Numbered from the stretch's first letter, positions 9,362 through 16,262 are shown. The stretch is 64,000 nt of DNA from a virus (IMGVR_UViG_3300028992_000036); one strand, 5' to 3'. The notes: a model not told the origin generated them from the sequence alone. A program made the numbers and translations.

Positions 9362-10618
9362 CTATCGAGAACCACCAAGAATAACACGGTTTTTGACTGG
9401 ATACCTACGATGTACTGGATAGCCCAATGCGTCTGCACTATGCTCAATGCCACCTGTCTTATCCATATCTCGTGTTCCAGGCTTGTAGATGACTTTTTCC
9501 AGTGAATCAATCAAATGCTTGCACTTCGGATCGATATACAACCGGATATCTCCAGATGCGGTCATCAGCATTCGGTTAACAGCATTAACACGATCCGCAA
9601 TTGGCGGGTGCTTTTTCGAATAATCGACACGTAAGAATCCCTTCTCTTTGAATATGTCGACGTCAGACTCCCCGCGAGCATGTTGGCGATAAGCACCTGC
9701 CGGATCTGGAAATACCGTTATCTGTGATTTCCAGCGCCAGAAGCGTCTCTCAAGCTCATCACAAACCTCTGCCGTGTTAGAGGAAAAGAGCACCAATTCA
9801 TCAATTGCCCATAGCTCACCATTTGGCTGAGGTTGCAAAATTACTGAAGACATCGGGTCAATGTTGAAGTCCTGCCCTACCCATATAGGCAACCGAGGGT
9901 TGAACTGAAGCGGTTTTACATGCACGTTACGATCGAACGGGTAGTAAACGCGCCCGGACATGTTCTCAAAGCTCGCCAGGTACTCCTGAGCGAACGATTT
10001 CGGGTCCATATCGTTCTTAGCAGCTTCAATTTCCGCCGTAGGCACAAACGGAGAATCGGCAGTTACAAACTGCCAGCTCTTCCACTGTCCCTTTCTTTGC
10101 AGCTCTACGTTCTGGCCTATAGTCCACAGTTTGTGAAATTCCGAGAAACCTTTTGGCGTACCAATGATAAGTGCACCGCCGCGTGTCGATGAAAGAGTAG
10201 GTCGTAACACCTTGTACCAGGTGTCAGCCTTCATATCCTGAAATTCATCAAGCACTACAAAATGCAACGCTACGCCGCGCAGAGTGTCAGGCTTATCAGC
10301 ACCTTTGAGGGCGATCTCCGAACCGTTCTTCAACACGATTGTCATCGTGGTGTCGTTCTTTTTCCTAACCCACTTACGAGGCAGAACTTCCTGTAGATCG
10401 TCCCACAAAATCTGGCGAGCCATCTGGTAAGTAGGAGCGACATACCAGACCCTTTGCTTTTTTTCCTTTGCCGCCGCACGAATAATAGTGGAGATCGACA
10501 ACCGGGATTTTCCCCAGCGTCGACCAGCACAAACAACTTTAAATCGATGCGGAGACTGGAAGACTTTCATCTGTCCAGAATGCAGTTGCACAAGACTGAG
10601 CGAGGACGGGATTGCCAT
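9362..10618 (-). CDS. terminase large subunit
   Basis: Walker A VVCAGRRWGKS, Walker B HFVVLDEF, C-terminal nuclease-type region; start overlaps small-subunit stop (TAATG). Confidence 0.8.
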   Translation of the reverse strand: MAIPSSLSLVQLHSGQMKVFQSPHRFKVVCAGRRWGKSRLSISTIIRAAAKEKKQRVWYVAPTYQMARQILWDDLQEVLPRKWVRKKNDTTMTIVLKNGSEIALKGADKPDTLRGVALHFVVLDEFQDMKADTWYKVLRPTLSSTRGGALIIGTPKGFSEFHKLWTIGQNVELQRKGQWKSWQFVTADSPFVPTAEIEAAKNDMDPKSFAQEYLASFENMSGRVYYPFDRNVHVKPLQFNPRLPIWVGQDFNIDPMSSVILQPQPNGELWAIDELVLFSSNTAEVCDELERRFWRWKSQITVFPDPAGAYRQHARGESDVDIFKEKGFLRVDYSKKHPPIADRVNAVNRMLMTASGDIRLYIDPKCKHLIDSLEKVIYKPGTRDMDKTGGIEHSADALGYPVHRRYPVKNRVILGGSR

Positions 10619-11250
10619 TATTCGTCCTCCCCTTCACTTCCATCATCTGTCGCATCAAATTCGCTTAGAGCTTCTTCTTCCAACGTCTCAAGCAATTCGT
10701 CATCGATGATTTCAGGCTCGTCGTCTTCCTGACGTAATTTCGCCACCTGGGAAGGCGTAAGCTCACCAAATACCAGATTCGGAATTTCTTCCTCGTCATT
10801 TTCCGCATGATCCATGCCCAATGCTTTGGACGAAACTTCAAAGCATTTTGCAAGGGTATTACTGGCTCTCTGTAAGCTCTTGAGAGAATCCTCAATCGCC
10901 CCTAAAGGCTTACCCTCACGTTTGGCCGTAGTGACTTCGACCATCACCATCTGCCCCAACGCATACGCCCAGCCGTCATAACGTGTACGACGTTCTTCTA
11001 TCTTTTCCGCACGGGCTTTAGCGCGAAGCTCTGCGTCAGATTTAAGAGACTCACGAACCATCTTCCCAACAGAGTCCGCGCCTTTCTCTAATCCTCGCTT
11101 TTTGAAATGTCTGGAGAGTGTTTCACGACGAATGCCGTACTCTTCCTCCAGCTTTGAGAGTGTATATTCGCCTGACGTCCATTTGGCTTCAGCTTCGGCC
11201 CACTCCGCTGGTGTCAGGCGAGTTTTTACCTCGTCTTTTTCGACCGTCAT
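10618..11250 (-). CDS. terminase small subunit, putative
   Basis: 210 aa, N-terminal HTH-like region, acidic C-terminus, directly upstream of and coupled to the large subunit. Confidence 0.5.
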   Translation of the reverse strand: MTVEKDEVKTRLTPAEWAEAEAKWTSGEYTLSKLEEEYGIRRETLSRHFKKRGLEKGADSVGKMVRESLKSDAELRAKARAEKIEERRTRYDGWAYALGQMVMVEVTTAKREGKPLGAIEDSLKSLQRASNTLAKCFEVSSKALGMDHAENDEEEIPNLVFGELTPSQVAKLRQEDDEPEIIDDELLETLEEEALSEFDATDDGSEGEDE

Positions 11251-11366
11251 AGATCCCTCTAAAACACACAGAGCGCGTCCATGCGCTCTAAAACAACTTG
11301 TTTACTGCATTTTCTAACCAACTTGTTTTCTGGGTTGTTTAATTAGGTCTGGGCATGTCTTATTAA

Positions 11367-11422
11367 GCCTGCTTCCGTATATATTTAATAAGTTACTTAT
11401 TATTTATATATACAGAAGCAGG
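11367..11422. repeat. 56-bp palindromic element (17-18-bp arms, AT-rich loop), copy 1 of 2
   Basis: GCCTGCTTCCGTATATAT ... ATATATACAGAAGCAGG; near-identical copy at 36864-36922 with the same single arm mismatch. Confidence 0.55.
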
Positions 11423-11446
11423 TCTTTAAATAAGCTCCCAGACCGA

Positions 11447-11713
11447 TTACATCACCAGTAACTTCGCTTTGGCTCGACCTAAAGTGGTTAACCCAAGAGT
11501 TCGGCGGTGATAGCGATTGTCACTGCGTTGGCGCGTATGCCCTTTCTCCACAAGCCCCTTTTTTATCAGAGCGCGAATTGAGAACTGGATACTTTGCTTG
11601 GTTGTCTTGTACGGCAAAACTTCAAGCAATTCGTCCAGATCAAGTAGATAACCTCGCTCATAACCGAGATTGAGCGTTTTGATGATGTCCTTTTGTTTAT
11701 CGGTTAACGTCAT
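11447..11713 (-). CDS. small winged-helix DNA-binding protein, putative regulator
   Basis: 88 aa; AAGGA RBS 8 nt upstream; helix-turn-helix-like segment; basic C-terminus. Confidence 0.4.
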   Translation of the reverse strand: MTLTDKQKDIIKTLNLGYERGYLLDLDELLEVLPYKTTKQSIQFSIRALIKKGLVEKGHTRQRSDNRYHRRTLGLTTLGRAKAKLLVM

Positions 11714-11722
11714 GGCAAATCC

Positions 11723-12613
11723 TTATGCCGGTAAAGCAATTTCTAACGGTTTATCCAAAGGTTGTTTGTCGAATGCCAGCAGTGGCAGCGTGTCAGGCAG
11801 TCGACGACCAAAGTCAGGGTTTCGATACACCCCATACAACGGAGACGTAAAGCTCAGGTTGTGAATGTCCTTGAGCAACTTCACAATGCTGGCCTCGTCC
11901 ACCAGACTGTCGGCAATGTCCTGAATCGTCGTGCCACGATTCCGCCCAGCTTTTGCCAGGGAACTGTTCTTGTGGTAGTCCGCCACCAGATCACGCAGTG
12001 CACGGCGACGACGAGACTCGCTCATTGCGAACAACTCTTTGACGATCGCCTCGTTATCACCCGGGTCGGAACGGAAATGGCGCTGGAATACACGCAGTGC
12101 ACTTTCATAGCTCTTCGGTCGCTCAGGGCGGATGAACTTAAACCCTGCTTTCATGGCGAAGGGATTGTATTTGCTCATCGAGGACTGGATCTCAATGATT
12201 GGCCGGTCATGCATCCTGCTAACCAGGTTAATCATTCGATAAGAGACGCCTACGCCACGATACTGAGTATCCACAACTGAGCGACTGATCACCGCAAAGT
12301 TGTTATTCACGTACCGACCCCAGTACTGGTTAGCCACGGTGGTATTAGTGGTTGGTTTCAACTTAGGAAACATGCGGTGGCGAGGTGCCAACAGTAGTTT
12401 CGGGTAAGCCATAACCACGACGCCCACCAGACGGTCATCAAGTTCGCAGCGATAGTAAGTTGGCGCGAAAGGTTTGCCGTCTGTTTTGTAGTGAAGCGAC
12501 TTAAGAGCGTGCCAGTCCTCTACAGTTCCCTTTGTAACAGTCATTCGCTCCAGAAAGTCCAGATGACGCGGAAACTCTTCAGGGCGGTAGCGTTTAATGA
12601 TGATGTCCGTCAT
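11723..12613 (-). CDS. hypothetical protein, coupled to upstream ATPase
   Basis: 296-aa ORF; start overlaps upstream stop (ATGA). Confidence 0.4.
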   Translation of the reverse strand: MTDIIIKRYRPEEFPRHLDFLERMTVTKGTVEDWHALKSLHYKTDGKPFAPTYYRCELDDRLVGVVVMAYPKLLLAPRHRMFPKLKPTTNTTVANQYWGRYVNNNFAVISRSVVDTQYRGVGVSYRMINLVSRMHDRPIIEIQSSMSKYNPFAMKAGFKFIRPERPKSYESALRVFQRHFRSDPGDNEAIVKELFAMSESRRRRALRDLVADYHKNSSLAKAGRNRGTTIQDIADSLVDEASIVKLLKDIHNLSFTSPLYGVYRNPDFGRRLPDTLPLLAFDKQPLDKPLEIALPA

Positions 12614-13275
12614 GAATGGACCTCATCGTGACTACCATTGTGATATTCCACCTTCACGCGTTCTTTGTAGTGCTTGGTGATCTGCATATCCGGGCGCAGC
12701 GCGTTCTTCAGGTCTTCGTGAGTCGTCGCCACCATTACCGTCGCACCAACCTTTCGAGCGGCACGCTGGAGGTTAGACGCCACAACCTGAGCGGTTACAC
12801 GGTCGAGAACAGCGCCGAACTCGTCAGCAGCCCACACTTTAGCGCCTGACTCAATCAGTTTGGCAATCTTGAGACGATATTTCTGGCCGTCTGACATTTC
12901 AGAAGGCTTGCGAACAAACAGATATGCATCGTTCAGACCAGCCATAGATAACAACCCAAGCGCATCACTGGTCGTTTTGCCCAACTGATCGATGACGTTA
13001 ACCTCATTATCGAAGGTAAAATCATCGATGGAGGCTACAGACAGCCCTTCATCCTTCATCTGTCGTTGCAACTCGCGCAGCACAACGGATTTGCCGGAAC
13101 CGGATTGGCCGGTGATGTACACCACATCGCCCTGCTTCACTTCCAGCTCCAGATTGTCGTAAAGCGTCCACTCTTTTTCGTCCAGGCCAAGCCCGAACGA
13201 CTCAGCGATTTCCAACGTGCGCGTGGTTTTATTTACGCGTGTCTGAAACGATACGTTGATGATGTATTTGCTCAT
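12610..13275 (-). CDS. stand-alone ABC-type ATPase
   Basis: Walker A GQSGSGKS, signature-like SDGQKYRL, Walker B VWAADEFG, H-loop TTHED; no transmembrane domain. Confidence 0.6.
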   Translation of the reverse strand: MSKYIINVSFQTRVNKTTRTLEIAESFGLGLDEKEWTLYDNLELEVKQGDVVYITGQSGSGKSVVLRELQRQMKDEGLSVASIDDFTFDNEVNVIDQLGKTTSDALGLLSMAGLNDAYLFVRKPSEMSDGQKYRLKIAKLIESGAKVWAADEFGAVLDRVTAQVVASNLQRAARKVGATVMVATTHEDLKNALRPDMQITKHYKERVKVEYHNGSHDEVHS

Positions 13276-13940
13276 GCAGCCATCTCCCCGGAAGAGATCT
13301 TCTCCGCATATGCCACAAATGCGTCTACCCCGCTTTCTCCCGTCATTTCTTCCATGTGGGCAAGCAAATCACCAACAACAATGGCAGAGCCAGCAGGGAG
13401 CGTTTTAAAGCCCAATACGTCGACAACACGTACTTCTTCCGCTGCAACTTCACGACTGATCTCGGTGTGTTCATCCTTCTGTCGTTTAGTTTCTTCGCCA
13501 AGATCGATAACTAGCGAGTCGGTGTCCATTTCTTCTGTCATACTGCCAACGAGAACATTCAACTCACGCTCTTCAAAGCCGAAAACCTCGATATCGTCCA
13601 GAACAAGCGACTCAAGCTCTTTCTGTAGCTTAATTGCATCGTAATCAATGCTGGCAAGTCGGTTATCTTCAAGGCGCTTCGCACGAACCTCGTCATCACT
13701 GAGATCATCGCGAACAATAACCGGTACGCGCTCAAGTCCAGCAAAAATTGCAGCCTCACGGCGGCCGTGGCCAGTAATAATTACGTCGTTCTTATCGACC
13801 GTAATTGGCTGGTCAAATCCGCGCTTTTTAATGGCTGCGGCTAGATCTCGGATCTGCTGTTCATCATGCTTTTTGGCATTCATCTCATAGGGAATAAGAT
13901 CTGCCGGGTCGCGATATACGATTTCAAACTTTTTGGTCAT
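13272..13940 (-). CDS. ParB-like nuclease domain protein
   Basis: ParB/Srx N-terminal motif ITGHGRREAA; AAGGAG RBS before ATG 13940; coupled to neighbours. Confidence 0.6.
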   Translation of the reverse strand: MTKKFEIVYRDPADLIPYEMNAKKHDEQQIRDLAAAIKKRGFDQPITVDKNDVIITGHGRREAAIFAGLERVPVIVRDDLSDDEVRAKRLEDNRLASIDYDAIKLQKELESLVLDDIEVFGFEERELNVLVGSMTEEMDTDSLVIDLGEETKRQKDEHTEISREVAAEEVRVVDVLGFKTLPAGSAIVVGDLLAHMEEMTGESGVDAFVAYAEKISSGEMAA

Positions 13941-14620
13941 TACATACGCTCCTTGTAGTAGTCGACCAGCCACACCAGAGCCTCACCAGCGTTCTCCATT
14001 TCATTACCGGTGTTAATAGCCTGCTCTTTGATGATGTTTTTTATGGTTTCTGCAACACGATCTGACGCATCGAAAGTTACTTTGAAGCGCATGGTCTGAT
14101 GTTCCGCACCCACACGTTCGGTTTTCTCTCGTTTGTCGGTATCGACAGGCTCATCACTACCACGAGACAACGCCTCCAGTGCTTCAAGGTCGATTGCCGC
14201 CTCTTTTGCTAAAACCATCGAGATTTCGTCGTCATACGGGGCGATTTCAGACAGTTGATAGTCAAGTTCTGACTGAATTTCTTCAATGAAGCGTTGCAAT
14301 GCGATTTGGTCGTCTTCACCGTATCGCTCGTTGTCCACCAGTGACATCTGTTTAGCTACGACATCGCTAATTTTGCCCACAGAAAGCACCGGAACCGTTG
14401 AAATTCCTTGCTCAATAGCAGCACGCCAGCGATGTTCGCCGCCGAGGATTTCAAAAAATCCATCTTCAAGTTCACGAGCCAAAATTGGCTTAAAAAAGCC
14501 CAATTTTTCGATAGAACCTTTCAGTTTTTCAAAATTCTGCGCACCAACCGAATTGGTGTTCCAGGTATTCGGGCGAAGGTTGGCAACATCAACCTGCAAA
14601 ATCGTGATTTTTACATCCAT
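13940..14620 (-). CDS. ParB-like nuclease domain protein
   Basis: Motif LGGEHRWRAA; start ambiguous (ATG 14620 or GTG 14638). Confidence 0.6.
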   Translation of the reverse strand: MDVKITILQVDVANLRPNTWNTNSVGAQNFEKLKGSIEKLGFFKPILARELEDGFFEILGGEHRWRAAIEQGISTVPVLSVGKISDVVAKQMSLVDNERYGEDDQIALQRFIEEIQSELDYQLSEIAPYDDEISMVLAKEAAIDLEALEALSRGSDEPVDTDKREKTERVGAEHQTMRFKVTFDASDRVAETIKNIIKEQAINTGNEMENAGEALVWLVDYYKERM

Positions 14621-14702
14621 TTTATTGCTACAATCCACTAAGTAATCACTTACTTATTATAATAGCCAAATAACATACAAAAGGCACTAAGGAAAGAGGT
14701 TT

Positions 14703-16262
14703 ATGACTGTTCGGATTGTATCTAACGCAGTAAATGCGCTTATTTCTGGCGCAGATGACAAGGTAAAGCAACTGGTGCAGCAAATGTTGAGCTACGAAGT
14801 CGAGACTGGCGACTGGAAGGGCACAAGCACGATGTTCAACTGGAGTAAAAACTCGTTCCCTGCTGGCTTTGCCAAGCCTGTAGCGGCGAACTTGAACAAG
14901 GCGGGCATCAAATGTGTTCATATCCGCAAAGACAAAGCCCCGGCGCTTGGTAAACCAAATCCGGCGGTTAACCCATTCCCATACAATCCTGATTATGCGT
15001 ATCAGGATCAGACTGTGGAAACACTGGTTCGAGAGGGAATGATGATTGCGCAGATCGCTACTGGTGGCGGGAAATCTAACGTTGCCTGCAAAGCAGCTGC
15101 ACGTATCGGTCGAATGACATTATTTTTAACAACCCGCTCTGTTCTGATGTTTCAAATGGCCGAAAACTTCCAGAGATCCATCGACTACCGCGCCGAAAAT
15201 GGCGAACCGTGGTTAAAAGACCAAAAGGTTGGAGTCATTGGCTCGGGTGAGTTCCAGGTATCACGACATATCAACGTCGCTACAGTTCAAACTCTTGCAA
15301 GTTTCCTCGAAGAACCACCACGCGATGCAACACCAGATAAGAAAAGCTACCACCTCAAACGTCGGGAGTTGGTGAAACGCTTCCTTTCAAGTGTCTCTCT
15401 TCTTATTCTGGAAGAGGCGCATGAGTCTTCAGGCTCAAATTTCTATGACATCGCCAGATTATGTGTGAACGCAGACTATCGTCTGGCGCTTACAGCCACG
15501 CCGTTCATGAAGGATTCGACGGAAGCCAACATGCGCCTGATGGCGGTGGCCGGGCGAATTGAAATTAAAGTCACAGAAAAGTACCTGATTGATCGAGGCA
15601 TTCTGGCAAAGCCGTACTTCCTTTATCATAAAGTTGCCTACAAGCCAGACGAGGCCAGAATCAAGGCCGAACTTGCCAACAAACACCTCAATTTTAGAGT
15701 TGGTATGAGCACCGCCTACCAAAAGGCTTATCAGTTGGGGATCGTGTATAATTTGGGACGTAACGAGGCCATTGTTCGCGAAGCATTGCTCTATAAGCAA
15801 CATTCTCTCAATTGTATGACTCTGGTTCGTCTTAAACGCCACGGGCAAATCCTGATGGAAATGATGAAAGAGTCCGGCCTTAGAGTTGACTTCATCTATG
15901 GGGAATCTAACCAGGCGACAAGGCAAGCAAAGCTGAACAGTTTAGCGTCTGGAGAAATAGATGTTTTAATAGGCTCGACTATTCTGGATGTCGGTGTTGA
16001 TGTGCCAAGCGTTGGTGCGGTCATTCTTGCTGGTGGTGGGAAAGCAGAAGTTGAAATGAGGCAGCGTGTCGGTCGTGGCTTACGAGCCAAAAAAAATCAG
16101 GCAAACGTGTGTTTTATCACTGATTTCATTGACATTAGCAACAAATACCTGTTGTCTCACTCTTATGAGCGAAAACACATCATCGACACCACACCTGGCT
16201 TTGCAGAAGGTGTATTGCCTATTGATGGAGCATTCGATTTTGGAGTTCTGAAACGAGATTAG
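14703..16262 (+). CDS. SF2 DNA helicase (ResIII/DEAH-like)
   Basis: Motif I ATGGGKS, motif II LILEEAH, C-terminal helicase motifs; AAGGAAAGAGG RBS. Confidence 0.7.
   Translation: MTVRIVSNAVNALISGADDKVKQLVQQMLSYEVETGDWKGTSTMFNWSKNSFPAGFAKPVAANLNKAGIKCVHIRKDKAPALGKPNPAVNPFPYNPDYAYQDQTVETLVREGMMIAQIATGGGKSNVACKAAARIGRMTLFLTTRSVLMFQMAENFQRSIDYRAENGEPWLKDQKVGVIGSGEFQVSRHINVATVQTLASFLEEPPRDATPDKKSYHLKRRELVKRFLSSVSLLILEEAHESSGSNFYDIARLCVNADYRLALTATPFMKDSTEANMRLMAVAGRIEIKVTEKYLIDRGILAKPYFLYHKVAYKPDEARIKAELANKHLNFRVGMSTAYQKAYQLGIVYNLGRNEAIVREALLYKQHSLNCMTLVRLKRHGQILMEMMKESGLRVDFIYGESNQATRQAKLNSLASGEIDVLIGSTILDVGVDVPSVGAVILAGGGKAEVEMRQRVGRGLRAKKNQANVCFITDFIDISNKYLLSHSYERKHIIDTTPGFAEGVLPIDGAFDFGVLKRD

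What the first reader, a model, noticed from the sequence alone, without database searches (positions are those of the whole stretch)
11723..14638. Translationally coupled ParB-ParB-ABC-ATPase-X operon ahead of the terminase genes
Two ParB/Srx-type nuclease-domain proteins (motifs GHGRREAA and GGEHRWRAA), a 221-aa stand-alone ABC ATPase with no membrane partner and a 296-aa unknown protein overlap one another by ATGA or TAATG junctions. A small wHTH gene and the terminase follow. This four-gene composition is not a standard packaging or partition module and may be a DNA-targeting, packaging-accessory or anti-defence system.
Basis: partly seen in the sequence, partly recalled or inferred. Interest (0 to 1): 0.65.

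Follow-up and report, generated by a model that had tools for sequence, protein, structure and literature searches.

The report
ParB-assisted ABC–GNAT DNA-acylation module (predicted)
Just upstream of its DNA-packaging genes, this SSU5-type phage-plasmid carries a conserved operon of two ParB-like proteins and a two-piece ATPase/acyltransferase enzyme that most likely adds an acyl mark to phage DNA, an activity predicted on paper but never tested.

Summary
On the minus strand, ParB1 (14620-13940), ParB2 (13940-13272), an ABC ATPase (13275-12610) and protein X (12613-11723) are joined by TAATG, ATGA and ATGA junctions. A small wHTH gene, a roughly 100-bp palindrome, TerS-like, TerL and portal genes follow.

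The window is 99% identical to Escherichia phage Cyrano and 85% to Salmonella phage SSU5. X is not an unknown protein. It has a GNAT acyltransferase fold with an intact acyl-CoA loop and is strongly basic.

The ABC ATPase and X are one enzyme in two pieces. They are fused in a single chain in archaeal proviruses and many phage contigs, and adjacent or fused in Planctomycetota prophages.

That fused gene sits beside or is fused to PolB, PolA or PolIII-alpha polymerases, directly after TerL, or next to ParB, formyltransferase or ASCH genes.

The whole block is conserved at 40-47% identity in Pseudomonas, Rhizobium and Stenotrophomonas phages and in marine contigs, so plasmid partition is unlikely.

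Best reading: a ParB-assisted, ATP-dependent acylation of DNA bases. Aravind's group already predicted this for ABC-GNAT genes; I found no experiment. The chemistry, the target and the ParB role are inferred.

The parts
13940..14620 (-). ParB1: a 226-aa ParB/Srx-fold protein (an alternative GTG start lies at 14638). It has an N-terminal NTP-binding domain with GGEHRWRAA (window 14417-14443) and VDNERYG (14318-14338), then an acidic linker and a conserved C-terminal segment of about 55 aa whose fold is unresolved.
   Evidence: - PF02195: 49.9 bits against a cut-off of 26.3.
- phrog_723: E = 2e-79.
- Spo0J (1vz0): E = 2.7e-9, aligning GGEHRWRAA with GERRYRAA and LVDNER with LVENLQRE.
- pI 4.55.
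- AF2 model: pLDDT 57 overall, roughly 60-85 across residues 5-100, so the C-terminal domain is not interpretable.
13272..13940 (-). ParB2: a 222-aa paralogous ParB/Srx-fold protein, 28% identical to ParB1. Its motif is GHGRREAA (13749-13772), in which the catalytic Glu of GERRxRA is replaced by His. EDNRLAS lies at 13650-13670.
   Evidence: - PF02195: 35.0 bits against 26.3.
- phrog_930: E = 1e-112.
- phrog_498, a 'DNA methyltransferase' family with an N-terminal ParB domain: E = 5e-32.
- PADLOC MTase_II PDLC03229: E = 3e-17.
- Start codon within TAATG.
- pI 4.53.
12610..13275 (-). ABC-type ATPase subunit, 221 aa, soluble. Motifs: Walker A 13087-13110, Q-loop 12979-12993, signature 12874-12894, Walker B 12817-12837, H-loop 12715-12726. 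It is the ATPase half of a split ABC-GNAT enzyme.
   Evidence: - PF00005: 50.1 bits.
- phrog_293: E = 6e-59, and phrog_11143 matches both the ABC protein and X.
- 181 PDB nucleotide-binding-domain hits.
- 42-48% identical to the N-terminal half of fused archaeal ABC-GNAT proteins.
- 30% identical (E = 1e-18) to the ABC gene of Tenacibaculum phage pT24, the phage Iyer et al. 2021 name as carrying the ABC-GNAT system.
- No TM segment.
11723..12613 (-). X: a 296-aa GNAT-fold acyltransferase subunit. The GNAT core covers residues ~20-165 plus beta-7 at 257-267, with a helical insert at ~166-256. Motifs: acyl-CoA loop RSVVDTQYRGVGVSYR (12236-12283), LHYK (12485-12496), IEIQSSMSKYNPFAMKAGF (12140-12196). 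The protein is basic (pI 9.8).
   Evidence: - AF2: pLDDT 85.3, pTM 0.77.
- Foldseek against viral structures: the top hit is a Mom protein, E = 7e-5.
- phrog_886: E = 1e-164.
- Invariant residues across 29 homologues down to 41% identity: H41, Y42, K43, R78, H79, R111, D115, T116, R119, G122, E141, S144, S147, Y260, G261, N265, P266.
- Fused to the ABC domain in many proteins.
- pI.
11447..11713 (-). Small, basic winged-HTH-like protein (88 aa, pI 10.1). It is the last gene of the operon and is conserved with it across the lineage. Its role is unknown; it may be a regulator or a site-specific DNA binder.
   Evidence: - phrog_900: E = 2e-44.
- Weak wHTH matches: LexA_DNA_bind 0.05, Sta1/Lrs14 0.003-0.007, CARF3-associated 1e-4.
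- Homologues occupy the same position in marine contigs and in phage nickie (E = 7e-20, 2e-16, 8e-7).
11346..11444 (.). Roughly 100-bp imperfect palindrome with a perfect core AATAAGT-T-ACTTATT (11387-11401), lying between wHTH and the TerS-like gene. It is a candidate cos or packaging-initiation site. It marks the module's boundary and is not shown to be part of it.
   Evidence: - Inverted repeats I1 and I17; sequence.
- The linear GenBank records of SSU5 and Cyrano both end at window position ~11385/6, next to the core.
- Whether that is a physical end or a convention was not established.
9362..11250 (-). Context only: the TerS-like gene (11250-10618) and TerL (10618-9362), which overlap in ATAATG, followed by the portal gene (9335-7761).
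   Evidence: - phrog_867: E = 2e-100.
- Terminase_6N, Terminase_3 and Terminase_6C.
- phrog_2 and phrog_10250.
14703..16262 (+). Context only: a divergently transcribed SF2 helicase (annotated as UvsW-like helicase in Cyrano), 82 bp from the ParB1 start. The divergent helicase is annotated or called in every relative whose gene table was inspected.
   Evidence: - ResIII, DEAD and Helicase_C domains; phrog_16 E = 2e-93.
- The same divergent helicase is present in SSU5, Cyrano, nickie, RHEph10 and marine contigs.

Best explanation
The operon encodes a phage DNA-modification machine.

**The enzyme.** The ABC ATPase and the basic GNAT protein X form one two-subunit enzyme.
- ATP binding should dimerise the ABC domains. 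That would bring two GNAT subunits onto double-stranded DNA or present a base to them.
- The GNAT site would then transfer an acyl group from an acyl-CoA-type donor to an exocyclic amine of a base. Candidates are N4 of cytosine, or N6 of adenine as with Mom.

**The ParB proteins.** ParB1 and ParB2 carry only the NTP-binding ParB/Srx domain and a short C-terminal domain. They would act as loading or activating cofactors on double-stranded DNA, in the way that:
- ParB-like proteins activate phage thymine dioxygenases, and
- the ParB domain serves ParB-methyltransferase fusions.

**Timing and purpose.** The operon lies immediately upstream of, and co-oriented with, the terminase and head genes, so the mark may be put on replicated DNA before packaging. 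The likely purpose is protection from host restriction.

**Shown:** gene structure, domain identities, intact catalytic motifs, the ABC-GNAT fusion, and the recurrent DNA-centred gene contexts.

**Inferred:** that DNA is the substrate, the chemistry of the mark, the role of the ParBs, and the biological purpose.
For: 1. **X is a GNAT with an intact acyl-CoA loop and is strongly basic.**
   - The R/Q-x-x-G-x-G/A acyl-CoA loop is conserved, with R119 and G122 invariant.
   - pI is 9.8.
2. **ABC and X are one enzyme.**
   - They overlap by ATGA.
   - A profile search with X finds many 450-500-aa single chains with an N-terminal ABC domain followed by X.
   - The window's ABC protein is 42-48% identical to the ABC part of archaeal fusions.
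3. **The contexts of the fused gene centre on DNA.**
   - It is fused to PolB in 1260- and 1310-aa chains. The 1260-aa fusion is indexed in 35 blocks of the assembly collection.
   - It lies immediately after an intein-containing PolB (L203), before a UDG-PolA gene (L215) and before PolIII-alpha (L155).
   - It sits between DnaB/DHH and RNase H/gyrase genes (L152).
   - It lies directly downstream of TerL in 55 of 80 viral contigs.
4. **ParB recurs with it.**
   - 9 of 22 bacterial loci, mostly Planctomycetota, have a ParB gene on the same strand near ABC-X. In L101, L110, L113 and L116 the order is ABC, X, ParB, small gene, TerL.
   - Gordonia phage AnClar has ParB, HNH, ABC-GNAT, Formyl_trans_N, terminase.
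   - S. pyogenes phage Javan511 has ParB_N, ABC, an 89-aa ORF, ASCH, DUF5681, TerL.
5. **In a Mu-like phage it sits in a similar right-of-tail-fibre position to mom.** In phiE255, ABC-GNAT plus Formyl_trans_N follows the tail-fibre genes, as the DNA-modifying GNAT Mom does in Mu.
6. **ParB2 matches N-terminal ParB domains of DNA methyltransferase families** (phrog_498 E = 5e-32; PADLOC MTase_II E = 3e-17), although its best PHROG matches are ParB-like families.
7. **Literature.**
   - Phage ParB-like proteins lacking a DNA-binding domain activate a DNA thymine dioxygenase on dsDNA, and terminases co-occur in 19% of those neighbourhoods (PMC13229309).
   - ParB-fold/acetyltransferase fusions exist (PMC12704722).
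   - Iyer et al. predicted an acyl modification of a DNA base for GNAT-plus-ABC-ATPase genes and named phage pT24 (PMC7824862). pT24 is a homologue here.
   - ASCH proteins hydrolyse N4-acylcytosine (PMC6972931).
Against: - No data show that SSU5-type virion DNA is modified. I found no experimental paper on this family.
- X has no detectable sequence relationship to Mom (hhalign probability 0.3%). The fold match is generic to GNATs.
- Both ParBs are very acidic (pI 4.5), and no DNA-binding domain could be identified. The ParB1 model is poor outside residues 5-100.
- ParB is absent from the 80 viral contigs that carry the fused gene, so it is not an obligatory partner.
- The commonest neighbour is TerL, which fits a packaging role equally well.
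- GNATs acetylate proteins and small molecules far more often than nucleic acids.
Confidence: 0.45

Rival explanations
1. Packaging accessory. The ParB proteins and the ABC-GNAT enzyme help the terminase. They might mark or clear the concatemer near the cos/pac site, for example by acetylating and displacing nucleoid proteins. Alternatively they might act in the way HNH proteins assist cos cleavage in HK97-like phages.
For: - The operon ends 196 bp upstream of the TerS-like gene, across a cos-like palindrome.
- The fused gene lies directly after TerL in 55 of 80 viral contigs, with gaps of a few bases.
- Planctomycetota prophages have the order ABC, X, ParB, small gene, TerL.
- Gordonia phage AnClar has ParB, HNH, ABC-GNAT, formyltransferase, terminase at its cohesive ends.
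- In a Nitrososphaeria provirus the gene follows the portal gene.
Against: - The same gene is fused or adjacent to PolB, PolA and PolIII-alpha, and sits inside replication modules with no terminase within the flanking sequence inspected (about 6-9 kb).
- In the Mu-like phage phiE255 it lies after the tail fibres, not beside the terminase.
- DNA-modification genes are themselves often next to terminases (19% for 5mYOX).
- No similarity to TerS, HNH or any known packaging factor was found.
Confidence: 0.2
2. Protein or small-molecule acetyltransferase used for host takeover or anti-defence. Precedents are the phiKMV Rac acetylation of RNA polymerase and AcrVA5 acetylation of Cas12a (the latter from my own knowledge). 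The ABC ATPase would act as a regulatory or substrate-handling module.
For: - Phage GNATs that modify host proteins are known (PMC7824862).
- In relatives, accessory ORFs are inserted inside the operon. One is a DUF2829 gene in RHEph10, which I recall as the family of the anti-Thoeris protein Tad2.
Against: - The block is a strictly syntenic core of a large phage lineage at 40-47% identity. It is not a variable accessory island.
- Fusion to DNA polymerases and pairing with ParB, formyltransferase and ASCH genes are not expected for a host-protein modifier.
Confidence: 0.15
3. RNA or tRNA acetyltransferase analogous to TmcA/NAT10, in which an ATPase plus a GNAT makes N4-acetylcytidine. The target would be host or phage tRNA.
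For: - ATPase-plus-GNAT is the TmcA logic (established knowledge).
- Relatives such as nickie carry tRNA genes close to the block.
- An ASCH gene lies near the ParB-ABC pair in Javan511, and ASCH proteins are reported to erase ac4C on tRNA.
Against: - The ATPase is an ABC type, not the TmcA helicase type.
- Fusions to DNA polymerases and ParB partners point to DNA.
Confidence: 0.07
4. Plasmid partition. The two ParBs would be centromere-binding proteins that keep the prophage plasmid segregating, as Pfeifer et al. 2021 assumed for the duplicated ParB genes of related Acinetobacter phage-plasmids.
For: - The element is an SSU5-type phage-plasmid.
- The proteins carry PF02195.
- The duplicated ParBs were read as partition genes in PMC7969092.
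Against: - There is no ParA in the operon.
- Scores are below the TIGR00180 cut-off (43 bits against 58.45).
- Neither Pfam nor PDB searches detected a canonical central HTH domain.
- The same block occurs in isolated phages that Pfeifer et al. did not place in a phage-plasmid group (nickie, RHEph10), in a contig that carries an integrase (L085), and in Planctomycetota chromosomal loci.
Confidence: 0.03

Closest known systems
GNAT-plus-ABC-ATPase phage DNA-modification system, a computational prediction (Iyer et al. 2013 NAR 41:7635, as summarised in Iyer et al. 2021, PMC7824862; example phage: Tenacibaculum phage pT24)
   Same: - It is the same two-domain enzyme, in a phage context.
- pT24's ABC gene is 30% identical to the window's (E = 1e-18).
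- The ORF that follows it in pT24 starts with the same acyl-CoA loop.
   Different: - Here the enzyme is split into two translationally coupled genes.
- It is preceded by two ParB paralogues and followed by a wHTH gene.
- It sits at the replication/packaging boundary of a phage-plasmid of about 100-110 kb.
- The 2013 paper could not be read, so I do not know whether it covers this architecture.
- Nothing has been tested experimentally.
Mom of phage Mu (a GNAT-fold DNA adenine N6-methylcarbamoylase)
   Same: - Phage-encoded, and in Mu it is the last gene, at the right end of the genome.
- In the Mu-like phage phiE255, ABC-GNAT follows the tail-fibre genes as mom does in Mu.
   Different: - No sequence relationship (hhalign probability 0.3%).
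- Mom has no ATPase partner and no ParB partner.
- X has an extra helical insert of about 90 residues.
ParB-dependent phage thymine dioxygenases (5mYOX176/ParB176; O'Toole et al. 2026, PMC13229309)
   Same: - A short phage ParB-like protein, with an NTP-binding domain and a C-terminal domain but no obvious DNA-binding domain, is encoded next to a DNA-modifying enzyme.
- It is needed for activity on dsDNA.
- Terminases are frequent neighbours.
   Different: - The enzyme here is an ABC-GNAT, not an Fe/2OG dioxygenase.
- There are two ParB paralogues here.
- No functional test of ParB dependence exists.
ParB-methyltransferase fusions of phages and plasmids (phrog_498; PADLOC MTase_II PDLC03229)
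   Same: ParB2, and to a lesser degree ParB1, match the ParB domain of these fusions (E = 5e-32 and 3e-17).
   Different: - There is no methyltransferase domain here.
- Homologues of ParB2 are nevertheless mis-annotated as 'DNA methyltransferase' or 'DNA modification methylase'.
TmcA/NAT10 RNA cytidine acetyltransferases
   Same: An ATPase and a GNAT work together on a nucleic-acid base (analogy from established knowledge).
   Different: - The ATPase class differs: helicase-like in TmcA, ABC here.
- TmcA acts on RNA.
- No homology beyond the GNAT fold was detected.
ParABS partition systems and ABC transporters (the labels in current annotation)
   Same: A ParB N-terminal domain in the first case, and an ABC nucleotide-binding domain in the second.
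   Different: - No ParA, and no centromere-type ParB architecture.
- No membrane domain anywhere in the operon.

Membership tests
ABC-ATPase/GNAT predicted DNA-acylation system (Iyer et al. 2013/2021) | A GNAT domain physically coupled to an ABC ATPase domain | tested here: met
   - ATGA overlap of the two genes.
- Single-chain ABC+X fusions in many viruses.
- phrog_11143 matches both proteins.
ABC-ATPase/GNAT predicted DNA-acylation system (Iyer et al. 2013/2021) | Homology to the named example (Tenacibaculum phage pT24) | tested here: met
   - pT24 is a tblastn hit of the fused protein P0184 (H82).
- The window's ABC protein against pT24 gp038: 30% identity, E = 1e-18.
- pT24 gp037 aligns to X's acyl-CoA loop only weakly (hhalign probability 31%).
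- The accession quoted in the paper (QAX98348.1) was not matched to these ORFs.
ABC-ATPase/GNAT predicted DNA-acylation system (Iyer et al. 2013/2021) | Acyl transfer to a DNA base | not testable with these tools
   This needs nucleoside mass spectrometry or in vitro reconstitution. I found no published experiment.
GNAT superfamily | GNAT fold | tested here: met
   - AF2 pLDDT 85.3.
GNAT superfamily | Acyl-CoA pyrophosphate-binding loop R/Q-x-x-G-x-G/A after beta-4 | tested here: met
   - The loop is RGVGVS at residues 119-124, with R119 and G122 invariant in 29 homologues.
- The fused forms have RGIGLG/A/S.
GNAT superfamily | Pfam model above the gathering score | tested here: not met
   - Acetyltransf_10 scores 14.4 bits against a cut-off of 23.6.
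- More distant fused members reach E of about 1e-5 to 7e-5 (Acetyltransf_1 above its cut-off; Acetyltransf_10 and Acetyltransf_7 just below theirs).
Mom family | Sequence-profile similarity to Mu Mom | tested here: not met
   hhalign probability is 0.3%. Only the fold is shared.
ParB-CTPase (ParB/Srx) fold | PF02195 above the gathering score | tested here: met
   - ParB1 scores 49.9 bits and ParB2 35.0 bits, against a cut-off of 26.3.
- PDB hits to Spo0J, ParB and Noc.
ParB-CTPase (ParB/Srx) fold | Intact GERRxRA and ENxxR nucleotide-binding and hydrolysis motifs | tested here: inconclusive
   - ParB1 has GGEHRWRAA (Glu and the second Arg are kept) and DNER.
- ParB2 has GHGRREAA (Glu replaced by His) and DNR.
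- Which nucleotide is bound was not testable.
ParABS partition system | A cognate ParA ATPase encoded alongside | tested here: not met
   The only ATPase in the operon is an ABC type. ParA elsewhere in the element was not searched.
ParABS partition system | Canonical ParB architecture (TIGR00180, central HTH) | tested here: not met
   - 43 bits against a cut-off of 58.45 for both proteins.
- The proteins are only 222-226 aa, and no HTH was detected.
ParABS partition system | Restricted to replicons that need segregation | tested here: not met
   The same block occurs in isolated phages that Pfeifer et al. did not place in a phage-plasmid group (nickie, RHEph10), in a contig that carries an integrase, and in chromosomal Planctomycetota loci.
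ABC transporter | A nucleotide-binding domain with all motifs | tested here: met
   Walker A, Q-loop, signature, Walker B, D-loop and H-loop are all present.
ABC transporter | A transmembrane-domain partner | tested here: not met
   No hydrophobic segment occurs in any operon protein. The conserved partner is the GNAT protein.
TmcA/NAT10-type acetyltransferase | A helicase-type ATPase domain joined to the GNAT | tested here: not met
   The ATPase is an ABC type. The resemblance is an analogy only.

The most novel reading that the evidence does not exclude
The module writes a previously unobserved acyl mark on phage DNA, for example N4-acetyl- or N4-acyl-cytosine. The writer would be an ATP-driven ABC-GNAT enzyme that needs ParB-fold cofactors to act on duplex DNA. 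That would make it the first ATP-dependent DNA acyltransferase and, after Mom, the second class of GNAT DNA modifier. It is spread across bacterial and archaeal tailed viruses and carried by common Enterobacteriaceae phage-plasmids.
Probability: 0.35. Interest if true: 0.8.

Novelty: new member of a known kind. Interest (0 to 1): 0.55.

Why it matters
- **A possible new DNA modification.** If the prediction holds, a large and widespread group of viruses carries a DNA modification that nobody has observed chemically. That group includes SSU5/pHCM2-type phage-plasmids of E. coli, Klebsiella and Salmonella, soil and plant-pathogen phages, and Planctomycetota and archaeal proviruses.
- **New enzymology and a second ParB case.** It would add an ATP-dependent acyl 'writer' to the DNA-modification toolbox. 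It would also give a second, independent case in which ParB-fold proteins serve DNA-modifying enzymes.
- **Phage-plasmid host range.** It could explain how these phage-plasmids cross restriction barriers.
- **Annotation.** Current labels are wrong and hide the system: 'ABC transporter', 'ABC transporter ATP-binding subunit', 'partition protein', 'DNA methyltransferase', 'tRNA-methyltransferase'.
- **Tractability.** The system is easy to study, because SSU5 and Cyrano grow on laboratory Salmonella and E. coli.

Tried and rejected
- **Sequence searches with X against the PDB found nothing.** A single sequence and a 29-sequence profile gave only noise (AlkD E of about 1; a myosin chimera E = 0.26). 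NCBIfam and PADLOC also have no model for X.
- **Literature searches mostly returned nothing.** Queries on SSU5 with ParB/ABC/terminase, on 'ABC-type ATPase fused to', on COG2401, and on ParB-like with large terminase and GNAT gave no papers.
- **The first viral-contig scan with the X alignment was uninformative.** It returned only near-identical SSU5-like loci.
- **The afdb50 fold library was unavailable**.
- **Modelling ParB1 largely failed.** The homologue search listed only relatives at 85% identity or more, so the alignment was shallow. The model is unreliable beyond residue ~100. My guess that the conserved C-terminal segment is ribbon-helix-helix-like is therefore unsupported, and I dropped it.
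- **Mom family membership is rejected** by hhalign.
- **The second copy of the palindrome core is probably not a shared operator.** The copy upstream of parB1 (14644-14658, two mismatches) overlaps a TATAAT-like element, and SSU5 has no match within 3 mismatches to the core at the corresponding position.
- **Two key papers are not in the library.** Iyer et al. 2013 and Krishnan et al. 2020 could not be read.
- **Contig ends after the fused gene are ambiguous.** They may be physical termini, att junctions or provirus-trimming boundaries. I could not decide among these.

Full report
**What is there**

The window is an SSU5-type phage-plasmid. The region 11400-14700 is 99.3% identical to Escherichia phage Cyrano and 85% to Salmonella phage SSU5, with 81% matches in Klebsiella phage-plasmids.

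On the minus strand the genes are:

| Gene | Coordinates | Size |
|---|---|---|
| ParB1 | 14620-13940 (a GTG at 14638 is the ORF-list start) | 226 aa |
| ParB2 | 13940-13272 | 222 aa |
| ABC ATPase | 13275-12610 | 221 aa |
| X | 12613-11723 | 296 aa |
| wHTH | 11713-11447 | 88 aa |

The junctions are TAATG, ATGA and ATGA, then a 9-nt gap before wHTH. Each internal start has a Shine-Dalgarno sequence. A 196-bp spacer follows, and then the TerS-like gene (phrog_867), TerL and the portal gene. An SF2 helicase is transcribed divergently, 82 bp from ParB1. Every gene has a strong full-length PHROG match (E from 6e-59 to 1e-164).

**Domain identities**

- **The two ParBs.**
  - Both pass the Pfam ParB_N threshold.
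  - Both align to the CTP-binding N-domain of Spo0J, ParB and Noc.
  - ParB1 keeps the Glu and second Arg of GERRxRA (GGEHRWRAA). ParB2 has His in place of the Glu (GHGRREAA).
  - Both are 222-226 aa, very acidic (pI 4.5) and below the TIGR00180 cut-off.
  - They also match N-terminal ParB domains of DNA methyltransferase families (ParB2 phrog_498 5e-32), though other ParB-like PHROG families score higher.
  - The AF2 model of ParB1 is usable only for residues 5-100.
- **The ABC protein.** It has every nucleotide-binding-domain motif and no membrane partner.
- **X.**
  - It gave nothing by sequence against the PDB.
  - The acyl-CoA loop is invariant across 29 homologues.
  - A helical segment of about 90 residues is inserted before the last strand.
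  - The protein is basic, pI 9.8.

**ABC and X are one enzyme**

- A profile of X finds 869 proteins. Many are 450-500-aa chains in which X follows an ABC domain.
- The window's ABC protein is 42-48% identical to the ABC half of Bathyarchaeia fusions.
- The Cyrano annotation already calls X 'MK0520, ABC-type ATPase fused to a predicted acetyltransferase domain'.

**Conservation of the block**

The whole arrangement is kept at 40-47% identity of X. It runs: helicase, then divergently ParB1, ParB2, ABC, X, wHTH, then TerS-like, TerL and portal.

- It occurs in marine contigs and in an integrase-carrying contig.
- It occurs in Pseudomonas phage nickie, Rhizobium phage RHEph10 and Stenotrophomonas phages.
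- Small variable ORFs are inserted between the conserved genes.
- Because it occurs in isolated phages that Pfeifer et al. did not place in a phage-plasmid group, and in a contig that carries an integrase, plasmid partition is unlikely. Pfeifer et al. 2021 assumed partition for duplicated ParBs in related elements.

**Contexts of the fused gene elsewhere**

- Planctomycetota prophages: HTH, ABC, X, ParB, small gene, TerL.
  - ParB is present in 9 of 22 bacterial loci.
- Viral contigs:
  - In 55 of 80, the gene lies directly after TerL.
  - In 27 of 80, the contig ends within 500 bp downstream of the gene.
  - In none does the contig end within 500 bp upstream.
- DNA polymerases and replication modules:
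  - fused to PolB
  - immediately after an intein-containing PolB (L203)
  - before UDG-PolA (L215)
  - before PolIII-alpha (L155)
  - between DnaB/DHH and RNase H/gyrase genes.
- Gordonia phage AnClar: ParB, HNH, ABC-GNAT, Formyl_trans_N, terminase.
- Mu-like phiE255: ABC-GNAT plus Formyl_trans_N after the tail fibres, which is where Mu carries mom.
- S. pyogenes Javan511: ParB_N, ABC, an 89-aa ORF, ASCH, DUF5681, TerL.

The common denominator is DNA and enzymes that move along it.

**Literature**

- Iyer et al. [quoted passage not shown] They cite their 2013 paper and name phage pT24. pT24 is a homologue here.
- O'Toole et al. 2026 show that short phage ParB-like proteins activate a thymine dioxygenase on dsDNA. 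Terminases are frequent neighbours in those loci.
- Kaljevic et al. 2025 report ParB-fold fusions to methyltransferases and acetyltransferases.
- ASCH proteins hydrolyse N4-acylcytosine.
- I found no experimental work on this family.

**Interpretation**

The best-supported reading (0.45) is a ParB-assisted, ATP-dependent acylation of DNA bases. It may be applied to replicated DNA before packaging, with protection from restriction as the likely purpose. The rivals are:

| Rival reading | Confidence |
|---|---|
| Packaging accessory role | 0.2 |
| Protein or small-molecule acetylation | 0.15 |
| TmcA-like RNA acetylation | 0.07 |
| Plasmid partition | 0.03 |

The weaknesses of the best reading:

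- There is no chemical evidence of modified DNA.
- X has no sequence link to Mom.
- The ParBs are acidic and have no identified DNA-binding domain.
- ParB is absent from most contexts of the fused gene.
- TerL is the commonest neighbour.

**Verdict**

This is a real, deeply conserved, mis-annotated module. It belongs to a kind that has been predicted computationally but never tested. Here it appears in a split form with two ParB paralogues and a wHTH gene. Interest is moderate to high, because a simple experiment on a culturable phage could reveal a new DNA modification.

Noticed in passing
window 11251-11446: The spacer between wHTH and the TerS-like gene holds three features. First, a ~100-bp imperfect palindrome (11346-11444) with a perfect core AATAAGT-T-ACTTATT. 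Second, two direct repeats AACAAGTTG (within 11290-11327). Third, a terminator-like hairpin (11269-11290) ending about 10 nt before the TerS ribosome-binding site. The linear GenBank records of SSU5 and Cyrano both end at ~11385/6, next to the core. This could be cosN/cosB plus a regulated terminator, or the shared end could be a convention.
   Followed up: partly
window 14644-14658: A two-mismatch copy of the palindrome core (AATCACTTACTTATT) lies in the 82-bp divergent region between parB1 and the helicase gene. It overlaps a TATAAT-like element. SSU5 has no match within 3 mismatches to the core at the corresponding position, so it is probably promoter sequence rather than a shared operator.
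   Followed up: partly
L002 1235-1489; L148 4168-4329 and 5646-5981; L149 3505-3687, 4336-4755, 5393-5895: In relatives, small variable ORFs are inserted between the conserved ParB1, ParB2, ABC and X genes. RHEph10 gp080 is a DUF2829 protein, which I recall as the family of the anti-Thoeris protein Tad2. The gene junctions of this operon seem to be insertion slots for accessory genes.
   Followed up: no
L153-L232 (viral contigs): The fused ABC-GNAT gene points outward at a contig end. In 27 of 80 contigs the contig stops within 500 bp downstream of the gene; in none does it stop within 500 bp upstream. In Bathyarchaeota locus L088, the ORFs annotated just downstream (an EMC3/TMCO1-like membrane protein and a cytidylate-kinase-like protein) look cellular. 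In L175, an integrase lies about 4 kb downstream. The ends could be genome termini, att junctions or provirus trimming.
   Followed up: partly
L150/L151 9001-12783; L156 3448-7380; L203 2336-7365: A single chain joins PolB to ABC-GNAT (1260 and 1310 aa); the 1260-aa fusion is indexed in 35 blocks of the assembly collection. Elsewhere, a PolB containing a LAGLIDADG intein overlaps the start of ABC-GNAT by one base. One ABC-GNAT protein (P0163) itself carries an intein in its ABC domain.
   Followed up: partly
L234 2312-2962 (Gordonia phage AnClar gp3); L236 5089-5703 (phiE255 gp30): A Formyl_trans_N protein immediately follows the fused ABC-GNAT in two unrelated phages. This suggests a two-step pathway in those lineages. 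AnClar gp3 is annotated 'tRNA-methyltransferase', which the Pfam match does not support.
   Followed up: partly
L235 3486-6014 (Streptococcus phage Javan511): A 172-aa ParB_N protein annotated 'DNA modification methylase' overlaps an ABC gene annotated 'iron siderophore transporter'. An 89-aa ORF and an ASCH-domain gene follow, just before the terminase. ASCH proteins are N4-acylcytosine amidohydrolases, which hints at the chemistry. No GNAT partner was identified in this locus.
   Followed up: partly
L095 8734-9492: In a Bathyarchaeota contig, a PAPS-reductase-family gene lies shortly downstream of the fused ABC-GNAT, after a 111-aa ORF. This is the DndC/IbrA-like family, which is often linked to ParB-associated DNA modification.
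   Followed up: no
P0154 (665 aa): One fused ABC-GNAT protein, judged archaeal from its TFIIB domain, carries a C-terminal TFIIB-repeat domain.
   Followed up: no
window 11723-13940 and homologues: There is a systematic annotation error in public records. X is labelled 'ABC transporter ATP-binding subunit' (PHROG 886). ParB2 homologues are labelled 'DNA methyltransferase'. The ParBs are labelled 'partition protein'.
   Followed up: yes
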